Sequence record: OZ035758.1
DNA: 41,071 nucleotides
Direction: 5' to 3' (one strand)
Source of the DNA: Kagunavirus LF7074P1
The notes under the pieces were generated by a model that made no database searches, was not told the origin of the DNA, and saw nothing but the letters and a program-made list of their open reading frames with translations. This document shows, in pieces, positions 4,360-38,717 of this stretch (positions within the stretch are counted from its first letter, which is position 1; the number at the start of each line of letters is the position of its first letter). The position numbers and the translations under genes are program-made.

Positions 4360-4364
4360 ACTGA

Positions 4365-4385
4365 AGCCCCGAAAGGGGCTTTTTA
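4365..4385 (+). terminator. Rho-independent terminator
   Basis: agcccc-gaaa-ggggct hairpin followed by TTTTT. Confidence 0.75.
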
Positions 4386-4433
4386 GTGCCTGTGATTATT
4401 CCAGTTATTCCACTCAATTGTAAATGTTGGAAT

Positions 4434-4451
4434 AAACTATTCGAATAGTTT
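4434..4451. repeat. Perfect 18-bp palindrome AAACTATTCGAATAGTTT
   Basis: Read directly; lies in 316-bp intergenic region and is preceded by ATGTTGGAATAA, which recurs at 5207-5218. Confidence 0.8.
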
Positions 4452-4655
4452 ACTTTTCACCAAAAATGTGCTAAGCTCCACCTGAGCTTGTGAAGTATGA
4501 ACAAGCGACCGCGGCGCGGGCAGGTAACGGAGCGGGACGTAAGTCCTGAGTGTAGTTACGCTGACGCGTTCGGAAGGGCCATACTCTATTGCTTGTGTAA
4601 AAAGTAACTGGTTTACTGAGATTACGCCGTTTCTATGTTTAAATGATAAGGACTA

Positions 4656-4681
4656 GCGCCCCGCTTTAAGGCGGGGCTTTA
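4656..4681 (+). terminator. Terminator-like hairpin
   Basis: gccccgc-tttaag-gcggggc stem followed by ttt. Confidence 0.45.
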
Positions 4682-4701
4682 CTTATCGAGAAAGGGGAAA
4701 C

Positions 4702-5088
4702 ATGAATCTTAAAGCAACTGTCGTAGCGGGAGCATGTTTCATCATCCTGGCTTACGCACACGGCATCTACCAGTATCGCAGCGGCTGGAACGGAGGCCGG
4801 GCGAATCTCGTTTCGCAGCAACAGCAGAAAGCACAGGCTGAGTTAGCTAAGAAAACACAACGGCAGCGGCAGGATGAATCGAAGGCCGCCGCCGCTGATA
4901 ACGAAGGCAAGACGAAATCAGAGGTAATCACCCGTGAAGTCGTTAAGTACATTAAAACGCCTGGCCGCAGCGTGTGCACTTTTGACCCTGAGCGCGTGCA
5001 GCTCAAGTCCCGCGCCGTCGCAAACGCCAATTCCATCCCCGGATACGACGATGATGCAGCCGCCGTGCAAACTGGCACTGCCAAGTAA
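4702..5088 (+). CDS. i-spanin (Rz-like)
   Basis: 128 aa; N-terminal transmembrane segment (VVAGACFIILAYAHGIY) followed by charged, Q/A/K-rich predicted coiled coil; contains an overlapping +1-frame lipoprotein ORF. Confidence 0.65.
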   Translation: MNLKATVVAGACFIILAYAHGIYQYRSGWNGGRANLVSQQQQKAQAELAKKTQRQRQDESKAAAADNEGKTKSEVITREVVKYIKTPGRSVCTFDPERVQLKSRAVANANSIPGYDDDAAAVQTGTAK

Positions 5089-5197
5089 CGACGCGGACGA
5101 GGATTTAGCTATTGACGTCCAGAACGCAGAATGTGTACGGCAACTGAGACTTAAAGTGTTCATGTTGCAGGATTACGTGAGGAATATTCTGGAATAG
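4934..5197 (+). CDS. o-spanin (Rz1-like outer-membrane lipoprotein), overlapped with i-spanin
   Basis: GTG start with GAGG 9 nt upstream; signal peptide ending in lipobox LSAC; proline-rich mature region (PAPSQTPIPSP). Confidence 0.65.
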   Translation: MKSLSTLKRLAAACALLTLSACSSSPAPSQTPIPSPDTTMMQPPCKLALPSNDADEDLAIDVQNAECVRQLRLKVFMLQDYVRNILE

Positions 5198-5276
5198 TTG
5201 CCTTGTATGTTGGAATAATTTATTCTTGACATGTAAATCCGGGTGGCCCGGATTCCAACGTCCAGGGGACATACTG

Positions 5277-5903
5277 ATGAGCGAAGAAGTGAAAGACGAA
5301 ACTATCGAACAACAAGAGACTAAGACCACGTTTACCAAAGAAGAAGTTGACGCGCTGGTATCCGGTCTTAAAGCTAACAACGAGAAACTCTTGTCTGAAA
5401 AGAAAGCTGCCGCCGCTGCCGCGAAAGAAGCCGCAGATGCGAAGCTGAAAGCCGAACAGGAACGCGCAAAACAGAACGGCGAACTTGAGGCATTCGAGAA
5501 AACGTTGCGCAGTCAGTATGAGCCAGTACTCGCCGAGAAAGACGGTAAGATTAGCAAAATGGCTGAGCGTATCCTCGGCGCAGAACGTAAATCAGTTATC
5601 AGCCAGTTGTCTGGCATGTTGATTGATGCGAGCGCAGCGGATATTATCGCTATGATGGTCAAGACCGAATTTGACGGCGATGACGTTGTGACCAAGTTCA
5701 CAGGTGCAGATGGTAATGTCATCACCACCGACGCAGAGCAATTTAAAAAGTATCTGCGTGAGCACAAAGCATTTTCGCATCTGATTAAAGCAGATGCAGC
5801 AACCGGCGGCGGGGCTTCCGGTAACAAAAATTCTACTGGCGGGGCCGGTGGTGCGGACGTAATCCAGCAAAAACTTAACGCCAAATACGGCAAACGAGGA
5901 TAA
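5277..5903 (+). CDS. Putative scaffolding protein
   Basis: Acidic, Ala/Lys/Glu-rich helical 208-aa protein immediately upstream of major capsid gene; ATG 5277 with RBS aggggac preferred over in-frame TTG 5226. Confidence 0.5.
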   Translation: MSEEVKDETIEQQETKTTFTKEEVDALVSGLKANNEKLLSEKKAAAAAAKEAADAKLKAEQERAKQNGELEAFEKTLRSQYEPVLAEKDGKISKMAERILGAERKSVISQLSGMLIDASAADIIAMMVKTEFDGDDVVTKFTGADGNVITTDAEQFKKYLREHKAFSHLIKADAATGGGASGNKNSTGGAGGADVIQQKLNAKYGKRG

Positions 5904-5909
5904 CAGAAT

Positions 5910-6878
5910 ATGTCTCTGTCAGATATGAAGGTTTATAACGACGATATCGTCGGTACCACTATCGAACTGCTTGGCCAGAAAACTGACCAGTTTAACGCAG
6001 CCTCCGGTGGCGCAATTGTACTGTCTACCGCTTCATGGCGCGGTGACTTCTCCCGTGAGTCTTTCTTTAACCAGATTGCCTCCGCTAAACGCCGCGTTGA
6101 CCGTTACGCCGATATCGCGTCTCAGGCAGCTACCGCGCTGACTCAGGGCGAGCATGTAGGCGTTAAAGTAGCTGGCGGCTTCGGACCGGTACTGTTCGAG
6201 CCTGCGCAAATGACCTGGCTGAACGAAGACCCGGCGAGCGCGATTCGTGCTATCTCCGAAGGGTTCTCTGACGCACTGTTAGCTGACCAGCTTAACACCG
6301 CTGTTGGTGCCGCCGTTGCCGCGGTATCAGGTCAGACTGCACTGGTTAACGATGTATCCGCGACCGCTGGCTTGACCCTGAACGTGCTGAACAACAGCCA
6401 CGCTAAATTCGGCGACCAGTCTCAGTTGTTGGTCACTGACATCATGACCGGCGCGGCCTACCACACTCTGGTGGACAAAGCGCTGACCAACGCAAACCAG
6501 TTGTTCGTTGCTGGCAACGTTATGGTTGTCGATGTTCTCGGCAAGCGTTACGTAATCTCTGACATTCCTGCGCTGTACGAGGCCGGTACTCCGAACAAGA
6601 CTAAGGTCCTGTCCGTAGTTGCAAACGGCATCATCGTTGATAATGCTTCTGACATTATCAGCAACATTGACACCAGCAACGGTAACACCCGCATCCAGAC
6701 CACCTGGCAGGCGGACTACAGCTTCGGCCTGAAACTGAAAGGCTACAGCTGGGACGTTACCAACGGCGGTAAATCTCCGCTGGACGCAGAACTGTTCACC
6801 GCGACTAACTGGGACAAAGCTGTTGCCGAGAACAAGCACACCCTCGGTACTCTGGCAATCGCCGACGCAGACCTGTAA
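5910..6878 (+). CDS. Major capsid protein
   Basis: 322-aa ORF with strong RBS (cgagga), directly after scaffold-like gene and followed by strong terminator. Confidence 0.7.
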   Translation: MSLSDMKVYNDDIVGTTIELLGQKTDQFNAASGGAIVLSTASWRGDFSRESFFNQIASAKRRVDRYADIASQAATALTQGEHVGVKVAGGFGPVLFEPAQMTWLNEDPASAIRAISEGFSDALLADQLNTAVGAAVAAVSGQTALVNDVSATAGLTLNVLNNSHAKFGDQSQLLVTDIMTGAAYHTLVDKALTNANQLFVAGNVMVVDVLGKRYVISDIPALYEAGTPNKTKVLSVVANGIIVDNASDIISNIDTSNGNTRIQTTWQADYSFGLKLKGYSWDVTNGGKSPLDAELFTATNWDKAVAENKHTLGTLAIADADL

Positions 6879-13000: not shown

Positions 13001-13030
13001 TTTAAACCCCTTCATTGTTGGTGTAAGTGA

Positions 13031-13059
13031 ATAGTACCCTATTATATTGGGGTGTGCAA
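13031..13059 (-). promoter_or_regulatory. Sigma70-like promoter P3 (TTGCAC-17-TACTAT) driving the minus-strand cassette
   Basis: Minus strand reads TTGCACaccccaatataatagggTACTATtca, near-identical to promoter P1 at 35039. Confidence 0.6.
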
Positions 13060-13167
13060 GTAATGTGATAGAATAAGTTTGCGCCTAGTGTCGCACACGA
13101 AAAGCGGGTGGTTCCCGTCTGGCGCATTTATCGTTAACCTGTAACCTCTTAACCAAAGGATTAAAGA

Positions 13168-28854: not shown

Positions 28855-28919
28855 AGTTCAGCCCTCATTAAGTTTAGATTTTCAGTTTACTCCGGGAAGC
28901 TGCCCGGCCAGTGATTAGA

Positions 28920-28948
28920 ACTATAATAGCTAACTATTCAGGTGTCAA
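28920..28948 (-). promoter_or_regulatory. Sigma70-like promoter P5 (TTGACA-17-TATAGT)
   Basis: Minus strand TTGACAcctgaatagttagctatTATAGT. Confidence 0.6.
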
Positions 28949-31390: not shown

Positions 31391-31421
31391 TATTTATTCT
31401 CCTCTCGTTTGGTATGGGCTA

Positions 31422-31450
31422 ACTATAATAGCGAACTATTCACTTGTCAA
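31422..31450 (-). promoter_or_regulatory. Sigma70-like promoter P6 (TTGACA-17-TATAGT), leftward early promoter
   Basis: Minus strand TTGACAagtgaatagttcgctatTATAGT. Confidence 0.65.
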
Positions 31451-31474
31451 TGGGCTTTTCTAAAATAATTAATA

Positions 31475-31483
31475 TGGTACTAT
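31475..31483 (+). promoter_or_regulatory. Extended -10 promoter element (TGgTACTAT) for the XRE regulator gene
   Basis: TGn motif directly upstream of TACTAT; no convincing -35; about 30 nt upstream of ATG 31515. Confidence 0.4.
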
Positions 31484-31514
31484 TCACATATCAACTGACT
31501 AAGGAGTAATTGAC

Positions 31515-34149: not shown

Positions 34150-34440
34150 TTACCGTTTAGCCAACTCTTCCAGCAAATTTTTATACTCTTCAAAATATTC
34201 CTCGACCAAATCATCGCCGAAATAGAAGTCGATATACTCGAGATTATCTCTTACGTTAAGCGACGCAGACATGGTGCTTAGTTGGCGTAAGCTAATTAGC
34301 TTCATTTCTGTTTCTACACAGAAAGGCCGGTAGGTATCGAGGTGGCAAGAGATGTTGAAGCATAAAGCGAACTCTCCCGCCACGGAGTGAACCATATACA
34401 CTTCGTTTTCTGCTTTATTGTGGAAAATTACACCTTTCAT
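34150..34440 (-). CDS. Hypothetical protein
   Basis: 96-aa acidic ORF coupled to upstream HTH gene (ATGA). Confidence 0.45.
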   Translation of the reverse strand: MKGVIFHNKAENEVYMVHSVAGEFALCFNISCHLDTYRPFCVETEMKLISLRQLSTMSASLNVRDNLEYIDFYFGDDLVEEYFEEYKNLLEELAKR

Positions 34441-34619
34441 TTCACATTCTCCTTAATCCATTCTTCAACTTTATTACGGTCAAATGTACCTGGTAAACGG
34501 CGACCCATAACCTTAATACAACAATCAGGGAATTTACCACTGCGCAACCAGTTATTAATTGTCTGACGTGTTACCCCAATACGCTCGGCTACTTCATTCT
34601 GGGTCATGTAATGTTGCAT
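34437..34619 (-). CDS. Small HTH DNA-binding protein (AlpA/excisionase-like fold suggested)
   Basis: 60 aa from ATG 34619 (RBS AGGAG 8 nt upstream); MTQNEVAERIGVTRQTINNWLRSGKFP. Confidence 0.5.
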   Translation of the reverse strand: MQHYMTQNEVAERIGVTRQTINNWLRSGKFPDCCIKVMGRRLPGTFDRNKVEEWIKENVK

Positions 34620-34650
34620 TTTTATATCTCCTGTTTGTTTGGTGAAGCTG

Positions 34651-34679
34651 AGTATAGGATAGCGGGAATGTAAAAGCAA
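34651..34679 (-). promoter_or_regulatory. Candidate sigma70 promoter (TTGCTT-17-TATACT) for the HTH/primase operon
   Basis: Read on the minus strand upstream of the 34619 start. Confidence 0.4.
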
Positions 34680-34716
34680 CCAATCCCTGCAATATTTAAT
34701 CTTTACAAAAAAGTTA

Positions 34717-34746
34717 TTGAAAGTTCTTGACACATGTTTGTATAAT
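34717..34746 (+). promoter_or_regulatory. Candidate rightward sigma70 promoter (TTGAAA-18-TATAAT)
   Basis: Consensus -10 TATAAT at 34741-34746; reads into a non-coding region containing a long hairpin. Confidence 0.4.
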
Positions 34747-34773
34747 GGTTTTGGGACTTGTATATATTACGGA

Positions 34774-34805
34774 GTTGACGAACCCTCCCTGAGGGATTCG
34801 TCAAC
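34774..34805 (+). other. Long perfect inverted repeat / stem-loop (GTTGACGAACCCTC-CCT-GAGGGATTCGTCAAC)
   Basis: ~14-bp perfect stem read directly from sequence; about 30 nt downstream of the candidate promoter at 34717. Confidence 0.7.
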
Positions 34806-34946
34806 CCCTCCCAGACAGCTGAGATGCTTGTTTTAGGGTTTAAGGATAAGTGTATCTAAATCTCATTTAAAGAAGTAACCCACTGAAATATCTACTGTTT
34901 CTTAATGTGCCGTAGATTCGCAACCGTAAAAATGTAACGATTATTG

Positions 34947-34972
34947 GGCAGGCTTAAGGCCTGCCCTTTAGT
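34947..34972 (+). terminator. Weak terminator-like hairpin
   Basis: gggcaggc-ttaag-gcctgccc stem followed by ttt. Confidence 0.35.
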
Positions 34973-35038
34973 TACCAAGTAATAAGAATAAAGGCACAAC
35001 CTTCCCCGAAGAATCACAACGGCAACGTAACTAATCTC

Positions 35039-35067
35039 TTGCACACCCCAACATAATAGGATACTAT
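35039..35067 (+). promoter_or_regulatory. Sigma70-like promoter P1 (TTGCAC-17-TACTAT), rightward early promoter
   Basis: TTGCACaccccaacataataggaTACTAT; conserved leader ...aaacgagacagaggag... to ATG 35102. Confidence 0.65.
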
Positions 35068-35101
35068 TCACTTATCGAAACGAGACAGAGGAGTGAGGGT
35101 T

Positions 35102-36275: not shown

Positions 36276-36282
36276 AATTTAC

Positions 36283-36311
36283 TTGCACACTAAGATAGAA
36301 TAGGCTACTAT
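36283..36311 (+). promoter_or_regulatory. Sigma70-like promoter P2 (TTGCAC-17-TACTAT)
   Basis: TTGCACactaagatagaataggcTACTAT; conserved leader ...aaacgagaggggag... to ATG 36343. Confidence 0.65.
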
Positions 36312-36342
36312 TCATTTACACAAACGAGAGGGGAGACAGAAT

Positions 36343-37677: not shown

Positions 37678-37986
37678 TTGGATAAATTTACTGAAACAGT
37701 GACAGGCTGGCTTCTCGCCGCCGCGCTCGCCGGAGGGGTCATCGGACTACGACAACATAAGTCCGTTATTTCTGGCCCTATCGACGGATTCTGCTTTATT
37801 GCTACTGGTTTCGCCTGCGCTGTATTTGGCGCACCTCTCGCGGCTCAATGGTTCGGTATCACGGGCGACCGTGAAATCGCTGGCCTTGGCTTCATCATCG
37901 CTATTCTCTGGATGCCTATCTATTCCCGTCTCTCCAGTATCGTCGCTGGAGAATACATCGCACGTCGAGGAGGCACAGATGAATGA
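37678..37986 (+). CDS. Holin (three predicted TM segments)
   Basis: TTG start 7 nt after GGAGG; three hydrophobic helices; immediately upstream of endolysin. Confidence 0.55.
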   Translation: MDKFTETVTGWLLAAALAGGVIGLRQHKSVISGPIDGFCFIATGFACAVFGAPLAAQWFGITGDREIAGLGFIIAILWMPIYSRLSSIVAGEYIARRGGTDE

Positions 37987-38251
37987 GTTATTCTGGTTCG
38001 GCGGTATGCTGGCAATCGGCGGCACATCGCTGTTTAATGTATACCATCCGAGCGTGGATGACGGGCTATTTGGTCGGGTGCTCTATATCCTGACTGCTAT
38101 CGTCTGCGCTGCCGGATGTATCCACCTGTTACAGGGCAGCATGTCGCCGACGCTGCCTGAGACATTAATCACATTAGTTGCGCTGCGTCAGATTCGTCAG
38201 GCGTGGCTGTCATACGGAGGACATAAGCGTGTCTCGAAACATTTCAGATAA
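37979..38251 (+). CDS. Second small membrane protein (two TM segments); holin/antiholin-like
   Basis: 90 aa from ATG 37979 overlapping the upstream gene end; hydrophobic FWFGGMLAIGGTSLF and VLYILTAIVCAAGCIHLL. Confidence 0.45.
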   Translation: MNELFWFGGMLAIGGTSLFNVYHPSVDDGLFGRVLYILTAIVCAAGCIHLLQGSMSPTLPETLITLVALRQIRQAWLSYGGHKRVSKHFR

Positions 38252-38717
38252 TGGATTGCATTTTACCGCCGCGTTTGAGGGGTTCCGCGGAACTGCGTAT
38301 CGTGCTACGCCATCGGAAAAATACTTAACTATAGGCTACGGTCATTACGGGCCGGACGTGGCCCCAGGCAAGACCATCACGCCAGGGCAAGGCCTCCTGT
38401 TACTGAACCGTGATATGGCTAAGGCCGTAGCTGCGGTTGACGCAGCGGCGCACCATTCGCTAACACAGGCGCAGTTTGATGCAGTGTGCGACCTGGTCTA
38501 TAACGCGGGGGCCGGCGTTATTTCGGCTACTACCGGTACAGGTAAGGCACTGCGCTCCGGTGATATCGCGACGTTACGGGCTAAACTGGCGCTGTTCATC
38601 AACCAGAACGGCAAACCGTTACTGGGCCTTCGCCGCCGTACCGCCGGTCGCCTGGCGCTGTTTGACGGTAAACCGTGGCAAGAGGCGGAGGCTATCGGGC
38701 GCGCGGTGAAAGGTTGA
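38229..38717 (+). CDS. Endolysin, glycoside hydrolase family 24 (lambdoid/P22 gp19-type lysozyme)
   Basis: GTG start 8 nt after GGAGG; motifs EGFRGTAY...TIGYGH...QFDAVCDLVYNAG...LLGLRRRTAGRLALF parallel P22-type lysozymes; no N-terminal signal-arrest-release segment. Confidence 0.8.
   Translation: MSRNISDNGLHFTAAFEGFRGTAYRATPSEKYLTIGYGHYGPDVAPGKTITPGQGLLLLNRDMAKAVAAVDAAAHHSLTQAQFDAVCDLVYNAGAGVISATTGTGKALRSGDIATLRAKLALFINQNGKPLLGLRRRTAGRLALFDGKPWQEAEAIGRAVKG

What the first reader, a model, noticed from the sequence alone, without database searches (positions are those of the whole stretch)
4702..5197. Rz/Rz1-like overlapped spanin pair located in the head module, 33 kb from the holin-endolysin cassette
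A type II membrane protein with a coiled-coil periplasmic domain contains a +1-frame ORF that encodes a lipoprotein with lipobox LSAC and a proline-rich mature region extending beyond the outer gene. This is the hallmark overlapped spanin arrangement. Its placement between the head morphogenesis and scaffold genes, bracketed by terminators, rather than next to the endolysin at 38.2 kb, is unusual.
Basis: partly seen in the sequence, partly recalled or inferred. Interest (0 to 1): 0.45.

Follow-up and report, generated by a model that had tools for sequence, protein, structure and literature searches.

The report
Known overlapped spanin pair of Kagunavirus
The two overlapping genes are almost certainly the phage's outer-membrane-breaking "spanin" pair, but this gene pair, its 155-base overlap and its odd position among the head genes are already catalogued for this phage group, so the finding is correct and ordinary.

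Summary
The ORFs exist exactly as described. 4702-5088 encodes a 128-aa protein with an N-terminal membrane helix. 4934-5197 (GTG start, +1 frame) encodes an 87-aa lipoprotein precursor with lipobox LSAC (Cys22) and a proline-rich linker, and it runs 109 nt past the first gene.

The window is a whole Kagunavirus genome (Guernseyvirinae), 99.9% identical to LF7074P1 over the 1-kb stretch compared. Both proteins match PHROG "Rz-like spanin" families. RefSeq annotates them as spanins in phage K1H. Kongari et al. 2018 list K1H in the overlapped "Jersey" spanin family and state the same 155-bp overlap.

The position (head-morphogenesis, Hoc-like, spanins, scaffold) holds in all 64 related loci I fetched. 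A genome announcement for a related phage already noted the separation from holin and endolysin. The "33 kb" distance comes from where the circular map was opened; across the junction the spanins lie about 7 kb downstream of the endolysin on the same strand. Only the upstream side has terminator-like hairpins.

One thing may be new. The spanins follow a conserved promoter-like site and a roughly 200-nt covarying structured leader RNA that is absent from Rfam. Sister phages carry a second copy of it.

The parts
4702..5088 (+). i-spanin gene (128 aa; inner-membrane protein with an N-terminal transmembrane helix and a periplasmic, partly helical domain containing conserved Cys92)
   Evidence: ORF. 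phrog_2536 'Rz-like spanin', E=2.8e-56, full length. Hydropathy. AlphaFold2 helices at 3-64 and 69-80. Conserved motifs and Cys in the family alignment. Annotated as a spanin in K1H.
4711..4773 (+). Approximate coding region of the i-spanin transmembrane helix (residues ~4-24)
   Evidence: Kyte-Doolittle 17-residue windows above 1.4 start at residues 1-8, maximum 1.94. This lies inside the predicted helix 3-64.
4934..5197 (+). o-spanin gene (87-aa prolipoprotein in the +1 frame; mature 66 aa with a Pro/Ser/Thr-rich linker, conserved Cys45 and Cys67, and a conserved C-terminal segment DADEDL..DV.N.EC..LR..V..LQ)
   Evidence: ORF. phrog_5672 E=7.4e-30 and phrog_1267 E=6.1e-20. Kept open in 40/40 relatives; the start is GTG here and ATG at the same position in Jersey-type phages. 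Alignment.
4934..5088 (+). 155-nt dual-coding overlap (i-spanin C-terminus / o-spanin signal peptide and linker)
   Evidence: Coordinates and overlap length. The same 155-bp figure is published for Jersey (PMC6139136). Within the overlap, diversity is highest at i-frame position 3, which is o-frame position 2 (0.175 against 0.106 and 0.094), so the i-frame dominates constraint there.
4988..4999 (+). Lipobox LSAC (residues 19-22); Cys22 is the predicted lipidated residue and Ser at +2 predicts outer-membrane sorting
   Evidence: The Cys at this alignment position is kept across Kagunavirus, Jerseyvirus, Dhillonvirus and Cornell-like relatives (as LSAC, LASC, LSGC, LNGC, ITGC or MSAC), whereas Cys14 is not conserved.
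4920..4924 (+). Shine-Dalgarno-like AGAGG, 9 nt before the o-spanin GTG
   Evidence: Sequence read.
4691..4699 (+). Shine-Dalgarno-like AAAGGGGAA before the i-spanin ATG
   Evidence: Sequence read; conserved in relatives.
4645..4687 (+). Extended GC-rich hairpin (core 4658-4677, terminator-like) ending 14 nt before the i-spanin ATG
   Evidence: The terminator scan hits 4658-4677. A hairpin is kept at this place in four lineages with different sequences, and compensatory changes occur within lineages (GCCCCGC/GCGGGGC, GCCCUGC/GCAGGGC, GCCCGGC/GCCGGGC, GCCCGAC/GUCGGGC).
4478..4581 (+). Conserved structured 5' leader RNA element (helices P1, P2, P2b, P3, then UUCGGAAGGG)
   Evidence: Covariance model R1 scores this site at 128 bits. 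On the alignment, 89.8% of cells pair against 33-42% when partners are slid by one to three columns; 11 pairs show changes on both sides. There is no Rfam match. Single-base indels among relatives rule out the 36-aa ORF 4497-4607.
4449..4477 (+). Promoter-like site TTTACT-17 nt-TAAGCT with TGn before the -10 (TTGACT in most relatives)
   Evidence: Read. Conserved as T(T/G/A)GA(C/T)T-N17-TGnTA(A/C)(G/C)CT in Kagunavirus, Jerseyvirus and Cornell-like loci. Not detected by the consensus scan. Function is inferred.
4429..4442 (+). Palindromic motif GGAATAAACTATTC, upstream copy of a 19-nt direct repeat (4424-4442)
   Evidence: conserved position in relatives. Extra GGAATA/TATTCC half-sites lie at 4396-4411.
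5212..5225 (+). Palindromic motif GGAATAATTTATTC, downstream copy of the direct repeat (5207-5225), followed by TTGACA and the hairpin at ~5236-5253
   Evidence: Hairpin arms covary between groups (AUCCGGG/CCCGGAU against CACCGGG/CCCGGUG).
4364..4381 (+). Terminator-like hairpin after the Hoc-like gene
   Evidence: One search lists it on the - strand. The palindromic stem is followed by TTTTT on the + strand.
37678..38717 (+). Functional partners: two holin genes (37678-37986, 37979-38251) and the endolysin (38229-38717)
   Evidence: phrog_2359 and phrog_2508 (holin), phrog_33703 and phrog_7 (endolysin). No lipoprotein or TMD pair lies downstream of the endolysin.

Best explanation
ORFs 4702-5088 and 4934-5197 are the two-component spanin of a Kagunavirus, belonging to the already-defined 'Jersey' family of overlapped spanins.

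Inferred mechanism, by analogy with lambda Rz/Rz1 and T4 PseT.3/PseT.2: the 128-aa protein inserts in the inner membrane N-in/C-out. The 87-aa protein is lipidated at Cys22, cleaved by signal peptidase II and sorted to the outer membrane. The two periplasmic domains bind through the peptidoglycan mesh and are probably locked by disulfides through the conserved Cys92 (i-spanin) and Cys45/Cys67 (o-spanin). Once holin and endolysin have removed the peptidoglycan, the complexes fuse the inner and outer membranes, which is the last step of lysis.

Shown here: gene structure, targeting signals, dual-frame purifying selection, family membership and conserved synteny. Inferred: localisation, complex formation and membrane fusion.

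The genes sit in the rightward (+ strand) gene block, about 7 kb downstream of the endolysin on the circular map. They appear to have their own promoter-like site and a structured leader.
For: - ORFs and signals.
- PHROG spanin families: E=2.8e-56, 7.4e-30 and 6.1e-20.
- 195 phage records share the DNA and about 660 share each protein; many annotate them as i-/o-spanin.
- Kongari et al. 2018 list K1G, K1H and K1ind1-3 in the overlapped Jersey i- and o-spanin families and give a 155-bp overlap.
- 40/40 relatives keep both ORFs, with frame-specific third-position diversity.
- The lipobox Cys and the periplasmic Cys residues are conserved out to Dhillonvirus.
- No other spanin candidate exists in the genome, and the holin-holin-endolysin cassette lacks one.
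Against: - I found no experiment on this family in the papers I read. The experiments described in the Kongari et al. review concern lambda, T4 and T1.
- There is no significant sequence similarity to Rz/Rz1 or LysB/LysC and none to any solved structure.
- The AlphaFold2 model has low confidence beyond residue 65, and coiled-coil propensity was not measured.
- The N-terminal side of the TMD carries only one Lys, so topology rests on analogy.
Confidence: 0.9

Rival explanations
1. The pair is an envelope-protein module unrelated to lysis. For example, it could be a superinfection-exclusion or receptor-masking lipoprotein (like T5 Llp or Cor) with a membrane partner, placed among structural genes as a moron.
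For: It lies outside the lysis cassette. It is preceded by its own promoter-like site and hairpin and is flanked by a 19-nt direct repeat, which looks like a moron. No sequence similarity to experimentally tested spanins was found.
Against: The architecture is the diagnostic spanin one: a TMD protein plus a +1-frame outer-membrane lipoprotein, with periplasmic Cys residues. It is universal in about 660 phage records. The phage has holins and an endolysin but no other spanin candidate. In Dhillonvirus the pair directly follows the head-morphogenesis gene without a separate promoter region.
Confidence: 0.05
2. Only the 128-aa gene is real. The +1-frame ORF would be a by-product of sequence composition with a fortuitous lipobox.
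For: It has a GTG start. Within the overlap the diversity pattern follows the i-frame, not the o-frame. Several GenBank records do not annotate it, or annotate only a 47-aa C-terminal piece; phrog_5672 covers only residues 41-87.
Against: The 106 nt beyond the i-spanin stop show strong o-frame periodicity (0.071/0.027/0.226). The ORF is open in 40/40 relatives, and the start is ATG at the same position in Jersey-type phages. The lipobox Cys, Cys45, Cys67 and the C-terminal motif are conserved even where the two genes barely overlap, by 8-14 nt in Cornell-like phages.
Confidence: 0.02
3. The spanin genes are simply read through from the upstream portal/head-morphogenesis transcript. On this view the upstream hairpins and the 'leader' have no specific role in spanin expression; they would be terminators of the preceding unit or recombination scars.
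For: All neighbours are on the same strand. In Dhillonvirus the i-spanin overlaps the head-morphogenesis gene by 8 nt with no leader. The promoter-like site did not pass the generic scan.
Against: The -35/-10/TGn arrangement, the leader structure and the hairpin are conserved with compensatory changes across Kagunavirus and Jerseyvirus. The same promoter and leader recur as a second copy elsewhere in sister genomes.
Confidence: 0.3

Closest known systems
'Jersey' family of overlapped two-component spanins (Kongari et al. 2018, BMC Bioinformatics 19:326; members Jersey, SETP3, K1G, K1H, K1ind1-3, EP23, HK578 and others)
   Same: It is the same family. The i-spanin is 99% identical to that of K1H and 65% identical to that of Jersey. 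The overlap is the same 155 bp. The place in the genome is the same: after head-morphogenesis and Hoc-like genes, before the scaffold.
   Different: Nothing material. This isolate has -35 TTTACT where most relatives have TTGACT, and it lacks the second leader copy present in some sister phages.
Lambda Rz/Rz1
   Same: It has the same two-protein logic: a type II inner-membrane protein with a helical periplasmic domain, plus a small proline-rich outer-membrane lipoprotein in the +1 frame. Periplasmic cysteines are present in both.
   Different: In lambda Rz1 is fully embedded in Rz; here the o-spanin overlaps and extends 109 nt beyond. No detectable sequence similarity was found. The o-spanin here has a conserved C-terminal segment; in the review lambda Rz1 is described as unstructured. 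It is not adjacent to the holin and endolysin.
T4 PseT.3/PseT.2
   Same: [quoted passage not shown] The o-spanin has two periplasmic Cys residues. In T4 the C-terminal part is a predicted helix; whether the conserved C-terminal segment here is helical was not tested.
   Different: The T4 genes are 'separated', not overlapped. The T4 i-spanin has no Cys, whereas this one has the conserved Cys92. They are different sequence families.
P2 LysB/LysC
   Same: It shares the overlapped architecture. There is a weak, sub-threshold NCBIfam hit of the o-spanin to P2_Rz1/LysC (E=0.052, 13.7 bits against a cut-off of 27).
   Different: In P2 the genes are part of the lysis cassette (my own knowledge, not checked here). 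The hit is below the family cut-off, so this is not a member.

Membership tests
Two-component spanin (functional class; criteria of Summer et al. 2007 and Kongari et al. 2018) | i-spanin: a single N-terminal transmembrane domain followed by a periplasmic domain with predicted alpha-helices | tested here: met
   Hydropathy maximum 1.94 over the N-terminus. AlphaFold2 helices at 3-64 and 69-80, at low confidence. Coiled-coil propensity itself was not tested.
Two-component spanin (functional class; criteria of Summer et al. 2007 and Kongari et al. 2018) | o-spanin: a signal peptidase II signal with a lipobox Cys and an outer-membrane sorting signal (no Asp at +2) | tested here: met
   MKSLSTLKRLAAACALLTLSAC|SSS: three basic residues, a hydrophobic core, LSAC, and Ser at +2. 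The Cys is conserved family-wide. This is a rule-based check only; SignalP and LipoP were not available.
Two-component spanin (functional class; criteria of Summer et al. 2007 and Kongari et al. 2018) | Gene pair in embedded, overlapped or separated architecture, with the o-spanin in the +1 frame when the genes overlap | tested here: met
   +1 frame, 155-nt overlap, extends 109 nt beyond. Relatives show 8-, 14-, 98-, 128- and 155-nt overlaps in the same slot.
Two-component spanin (functional class; criteria of Summer et al. 2007 and Kongari et al. 2018) | At least one periplasmic Cys available for intermolecular disulfide bonds | tested here: met
   i-spanin Cys92 and o-spanin Cys45 and Cys67 are conserved in all aligned lineages. 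Disulfide formation itself cannot be tested here.
Two-component spanin (functional class; criteria of Summer et al. 2007 and Kongari et al. 2018) | Required for outer-membrane disruption; complements lambda Rz/Rz1 null mutants | not testable with these tools
   This needs the wet-lab complementation or knockout test.
Jersey spanin sequence family (Kongari 2018) / phrog_2536 + phrog_5672/1267 | Significant sequence similarity of both proteins to family members | tested here: met
   phrog_2536 E=2.8e-56; phrog_5672 E=7.4e-30; phrog_1267 E=6.1e-20. tblastn gives 99-100% identity to Kagunavirus and 62-77% to Jerseyvirus. K1H is named as a member.
Lambda Rz / Rz1 and P2 LysB / LysC sequence families | Score above the curated threshold of the family model | tested here: not met
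   No Pfam Rz/Rz1 family was hit. DUF2514 scored E=0.025, 15.1 bits against a cut-off of 26. NCBIfam P2_Rz1 scored 13.7 bits against a cut-off of 27.
   Upstream, 4364-4381 and 4658-4677 qualify. Downstream, nothing qualifies between 5197 and 5277, and the hairpin at ~5236-5253 lacks a T-run.
HK022 put-type cis-acting antiterminator RNA (considered for the leader 4478-4581) | A promoter-proximal RNA of two stem-loops, present in two copies per genome, that confers read-through of downstream terminators | tested here: inconclusive
   The promoter-proximal position, the conserved helices and the two copies in sister phages are met. The covariance model finds nothing in HK022, so there is no homology. 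Antitermination activity cannot be tested here.

The most novel reading that the evidence does not exclude
The spanin pair may be the first cistron of a separately controlled transcription unit. That unit would consist of a conserved extended -10 promoter-like site (4449-4477) flanked by clustered GGAATA/TATTCC palindromes, a ~200-nt covarying structured leader (core 4478-4581) with no Rfam match, and a conserved hairpin (4645-4687).

Sister Kagunaviruses carry a paralogous promoter-plus-leader copy just upstream of the homologue of this window's early-promoter region at 35009 and the + strand genes that follow it. The leader could therefore be an undescribed cis-acting RNA, such as a put-like processive antiterminator, or a ~200-nt small RNA. 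Either could time expression of the spanins and late head genes relative to the holin and endolysin.
Probability: 0.25. Interest if true: 0.55.

Novelty: already known. Interest (0 to 1): 0.12.

Why it matters
For the finding as given, the main value is annotation quality. The o-spanin is missing or truncated in many GenBank records of these therapeutic-candidate coliphages and salmonella phages, and the correct start is the GTG at 4934.

Biologically, the case illustrates that spanins need not be linked to the holin and endolysin. They are harmless until the peptidoglycan is removed, so they can sit among genes such as those for the head.

The only part that could open a new question is the conserved promoter-leader-hairpin in front of the spanins. 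If it is a regulatory RNA, it would be an untested layer of late-gene and lysis control in a widely used group of virulent siphophages.

Tried and rejected
- Rfam on the whole window at gathering thresholds, and on 4380-4720 at E<=10, gave nothing credible. No tRNA or tmRNA was found.
- The search for a spanin or u-spanin next to the endolysin found none.
- The PDB sequence search with the i-spanin gave no relative.
- The 36-aa ORF 4497-4607 in the leader is rejected as a gene, because relatives carry single-base indels in it.
- Reading the downstream repeat copy plus TTGACA (5226-5231) as a sigma-70 promoter found no acceptable -10 at 16-18 nt spacing, either here or in Jersey-type relatives.
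- The exact-pattern scan of IMG/VR for the leader returned many chance matches in unrelated contigs, and the apparent 'second copies' in Jerseyvirus genomes are unrelated sequence. Only the Kagunavirus copy B is a true paralogue.
- The covariance model of the leader found no match in HK022, Dhillonvirus or Cornell-like loci, and no second site in this window.
- The MAFFT-only alignment puts the Jersey rows out of structural register in some helices, so counts on A2 and A3 understate pairing, while A4 is fitted to the model and may overstate it.

Full report
**1. What the window is**

A 1-kb query around the finding matches 195 phage records. The best is Kagunavirus LF7074P1 (OZ035752.1, 41,072 bp) at 99.9% identity and at the same coordinates, 4400-5400. 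From this I infer that the 41,071-base window is essentially a whole Kagunavirus genome (Guernseyvirinae) opened at the terminase gene. The annotated relative K1H (NC_027994) is deposited as a circular record and has the same gene order.

**2. The observation**

- 4702-5088: ATG start, 128 aa.
- 4934-5197: GTG start, 87 aa, +1 frame.

They overlap by 155 nt, and the second ORF runs 109 nt past the first.

The first protein has a hydrophobic N-terminus (Kyte-Doolittle maximum 1.94) followed by about 104 polar residues. A single-sequence AlphaFold2 model puts residues 3-64 and 69-80 in helices, but mean pLDDT is only 58.5. 'Helical' is therefore supported. 'Coiled coil' is not demonstrated.

The second protein begins MKSLSTLKRLAAACALLTLSAC|SSSPAPSQTPIPSPD. 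It has three basic residues, a hydrophobic core, lipobox LSAC with Cys22, and Ser at +2. Seven of the first 25 mature residues are prolines. Both starts have Shine-Dalgarno-like sequences.

**3. Is the second frame real?**

I collected 64 related loci from IMG/VR and GenBank. All 40 with the same 496-nt layout keep both frames open, and 37 of them are distinct sequences.

| Region | Frame used | Diversity at codon positions 1 / 2 / 3 |
|---|---|---|
| i-only | i-frame | 0.083 / 0.071 / 0.203 |
| o-only (beyond the i-spanin stop) | o-frame | 0.071 / 0.027 / 0.226 |

Each frame is thus under purifying selection where it stands alone. Inside the overlap the i-frame pattern dominates: diversity is 0.175 at i-frame position 3, which is o-frame position 2. 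This fits the weakly constrained signal peptide and linker of the lipoprotein.

The start is ATG at the same position in Jersey-type phages. The lipobox Cys, Cys45, Cys67 and the C-terminal motif DADEDL..DV.N.EC..LR..V..LQ are conserved out to Dhillonvirus. So is Cys92 of the membrane protein.

A crude lipobox rule passes only 6 of 1148 start/ORF combinations in the genome. This is the only one that sits beside a TMD protein.

**4. What it is**

- Both proteins hit PHROG families labelled 'Rz-like spanin': phrog_2536 (E=2.8e-56), phrog_5672 (E=7.4e-30) and phrog_1267 (E=6.1e-20).
- Kongari et al. 2018 (PMC6139136) list Jersey, SETP3, K1G, K1H, K1ind1-3, EP23, HK578 and others as the overlapped 'Jersey' i- and o-spanin families. 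[quoted passage not shown] I saw the same variants in loci L005 and L041.
- There is no significant similarity to lambda Rz/Rz1 or P2 LysB/LysC models, and none to any solved structure. This is an analogue of Rz/Rz1 and a member of a separate, already named family.

**5. Placement**

The holins (37678-37986, 37979-38251) and the endolysin (38229-38717) are confirmed, and no spanin candidate follows them.

The order head-morphogenesis > Hoc-like > i-spanin > o-spanin > scaffold is found in every one of the 64 loci whose flanks reach far enough. In Dhillonvirus the pair directly follows the head-morphogenesis gene. The placement is therefore the family norm.

It has also been remarked in print. 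[quoted passage not shown] Similar statements exist for Golestan and fBC-Eco01. Unlinked spanins are also known from T4.

The '33 kb' figure depends on where the circular map is cut. Across the junction, the i-spanin start lies 41071-38717+4701 = 7,055 nt downstream of the endolysin stop. The intervening ORFs that correspond to annotated K1H genes (small ORFs, terminase, portal, head-morphogenesis, Hoc-like) are all on the + strand.

**6. 'Bracketed by terminators'**

This claim is half right. Terminator-like hairpins lie at 4364-4381 (after the Hoc-like gene) and at 4658-4677 (24 nt before the i-spanin ATG). The scan finds none between 5197 and the scaffold gene. The hairpin at about 5236-5253 has no T-run.

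**7. What surrounds the cassette (beyond the finding)**

*Direct repeat.* A 19-nt direct repeat ATGTTGGAATAAnnTATTC occurs at 4424-4442 and 5207-5225. Its palindromic core GGAATAnnnTATTC occurs with zero mismatches only at these two places in the genome. It is conserved at both places in Kagunavirus and Jerseyvirus. Extra GGAATA/TATTCC half-sites cluster at both places.

*Promoter-like site.* After the upstream copy comes TTTACT-17 nt-TAAGCT, preceded by TGn (4449-4477). This is conserved as TTGACT/TAGACT/TGGACT-N17-TGnTA(A/C)(G/C)CT in three lineages.

*Leader.* The following ~200 nt are non-coding, because relatives carry single-base indels. They fold into conserved helices. On a model-fitted alignment of 20 distinct copies:
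- 89.8% of cells pair, against 33-42% when partners are slid by one to three columns.
- 11 pairs show changes on both sides; only 1 of 500 shuffles reaches that number.
- The covariation score is 0.244, against at most 0.069 for the slid versions.

MAFFT-only alignments give 86-89% paired and a score of 0.161. One P2 pair occurs as C-G, U-A and A-U. The P3 hairpin exists in at least six different sequences.

*Hairpin.* The hairpin before the ribosome-binding site (4645-4687) is kept, with different sequences and compensatory changes, in four lineages.

*No Rfam match.* Rfam has no match to the leader.

*Second copy in sister phages.* Many sister Kagunaviruses carry a second, paralogous promoter-plus-leader copy. 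It lies about 11.7 kb upstream, between the homologues of window 34262-34598 and 35009 onwards. That puts it just upstream of the early-promoter region and the + strand genes that follow. This window lacks the copy. In its place it has a different promoter-like site, a hairpin and a terminator (34717-34972).

*Interpretation.* I read these facts as a separately controlled transcription unit starting with the spanins. The leader's role is open. It could be a cis-acting antiterminator in the manner of HK022 put, a small RNA, or an RNA-stability or processing element. The covariance model finds nothing in HK022, so any resemblance to put is functional at most.

**8. Verdict**

The interest score is low. 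The conserved promoter-leader-hairpin is the only lead here that might be new, and it needs transcript mapping to be taken further.

Noticed in passing
window 4449-4687 (promoter-like 4449-4477; leader core 4478-4581; hairpin 4645-4687): A conserved extended -10 promoter-like site is followed by a ~200-nt non-coding, covarying structured leader and a conserved hairpin, immediately upstream of the i-spanin. It has no Rfam match. The covariance model built here (R1) finds it only in Kagunavirus and Jerseyvirus.
   Followed up: partly
loci L094 (153-256 and 11818-11923, - strand), L140, L068/L092, L088/L095; corresponds to window ~34600-35010: Sister Kagunaviruses have a second, paralogous copy of the same promoter and leader (78% identical to copy A). 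It lies between the HTH gene and the homologue of this window's early-promoter region at 35009. This window lacks that copy.
   Followed up: partly
window 34717-34972: In the slot where relatives carry leader copy B, this genome has a different unit. It consists of TTGAAA-18-TATAAT (34717-34746), a 14-bp hairpin (~34775-34810) and a clean intrinsic terminator GGGCAGGC-TTAA-GGCCTGCCC-TTT (34947-34972). This would make a possible ~220-nt RNA.
   Followed up: no
window 4424-4442 and 5207-5225 (plus half-sites 4396-4411, 5181-5197): A 19-nt direct repeat with palindromic core GGAATAnnnTATTC brackets the leader-plus-spanin segment, with 783 nt between repeat starts. It is conserved at both sites in Kagunavirus and Jerseyvirus. 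It could be an operator for a phage regulator or a boundary for module exchange. In this isolate a perfect 20-bp palindrome TAAACTATTCGAATAGTTTA (4433-4452) overlaps the -35.
   Followed up: partly
locus L041 (4001-4589) versus window 4702-5197: This is a mosaic phage. Its leader and flanks are Kagunavirus-type, but its spanins are Cornell-like and nearly separated (14-nt overlap, i-spanin 69% identical). The spanin cassette is therefore exchanged between lineages within the same slot.
   Followed up: partly
window 5226-5277: The scaffold gene more likely starts at ATG 5277 (RBS AGGGGA) than at TTG 5226, which is the start K1H annotates. Two scaffold N-terminal alleles diverge exactly at 5277. 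The stretch 5226-5276 is conserved and contains a covarying hairpin.
   Followed up: partly
window 13024-13060 (-), ~28910-28945, ~31410-31445, ~31455-31490, 35038-35072, 36282-36316 (+): This is a family of about 35-nt promoter-like repeats, CTTGCAC..N..TAATAGGnTACTATTCAC (TTGCAC-17-TACTAT). It matches the PHIRE 'phage promoter' consensus tgAATAGTa-ccTATTat-T reported for Kagunavirus fBC-Eco01 (PMC9825357). These phages have no annotated RNA polymerase, so the repeats are probably host sigma-70 early promoters.
   Followed up: partly
window 4360-4701 versus K1H (L001 4331-4837): The Hoc-to-spanin gap is 342 nt here and 507 nt in K1H and most relatives. Those relatives carry a leftward copy of the early-promoter repeat where this genome has the terminator hairpin 4364-4381.
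   Followed up: no
window 5910-6878: tblastn at E<=1e-5 recovers the major capsid protein (Pfam Gp13-like, E=7.9e-105) in only 9 of the 64 related loci, although scaffold homologues are found in nearly all. For the 20 loci fetched with 1.5-kb flanks the capsid region lies outside the stored DNA. For the 4-kb-flank loci the absence suggests a different scaffold-C-terminus/capsid allele (module swap) in most Kagunaviruses.
   Followed up: no
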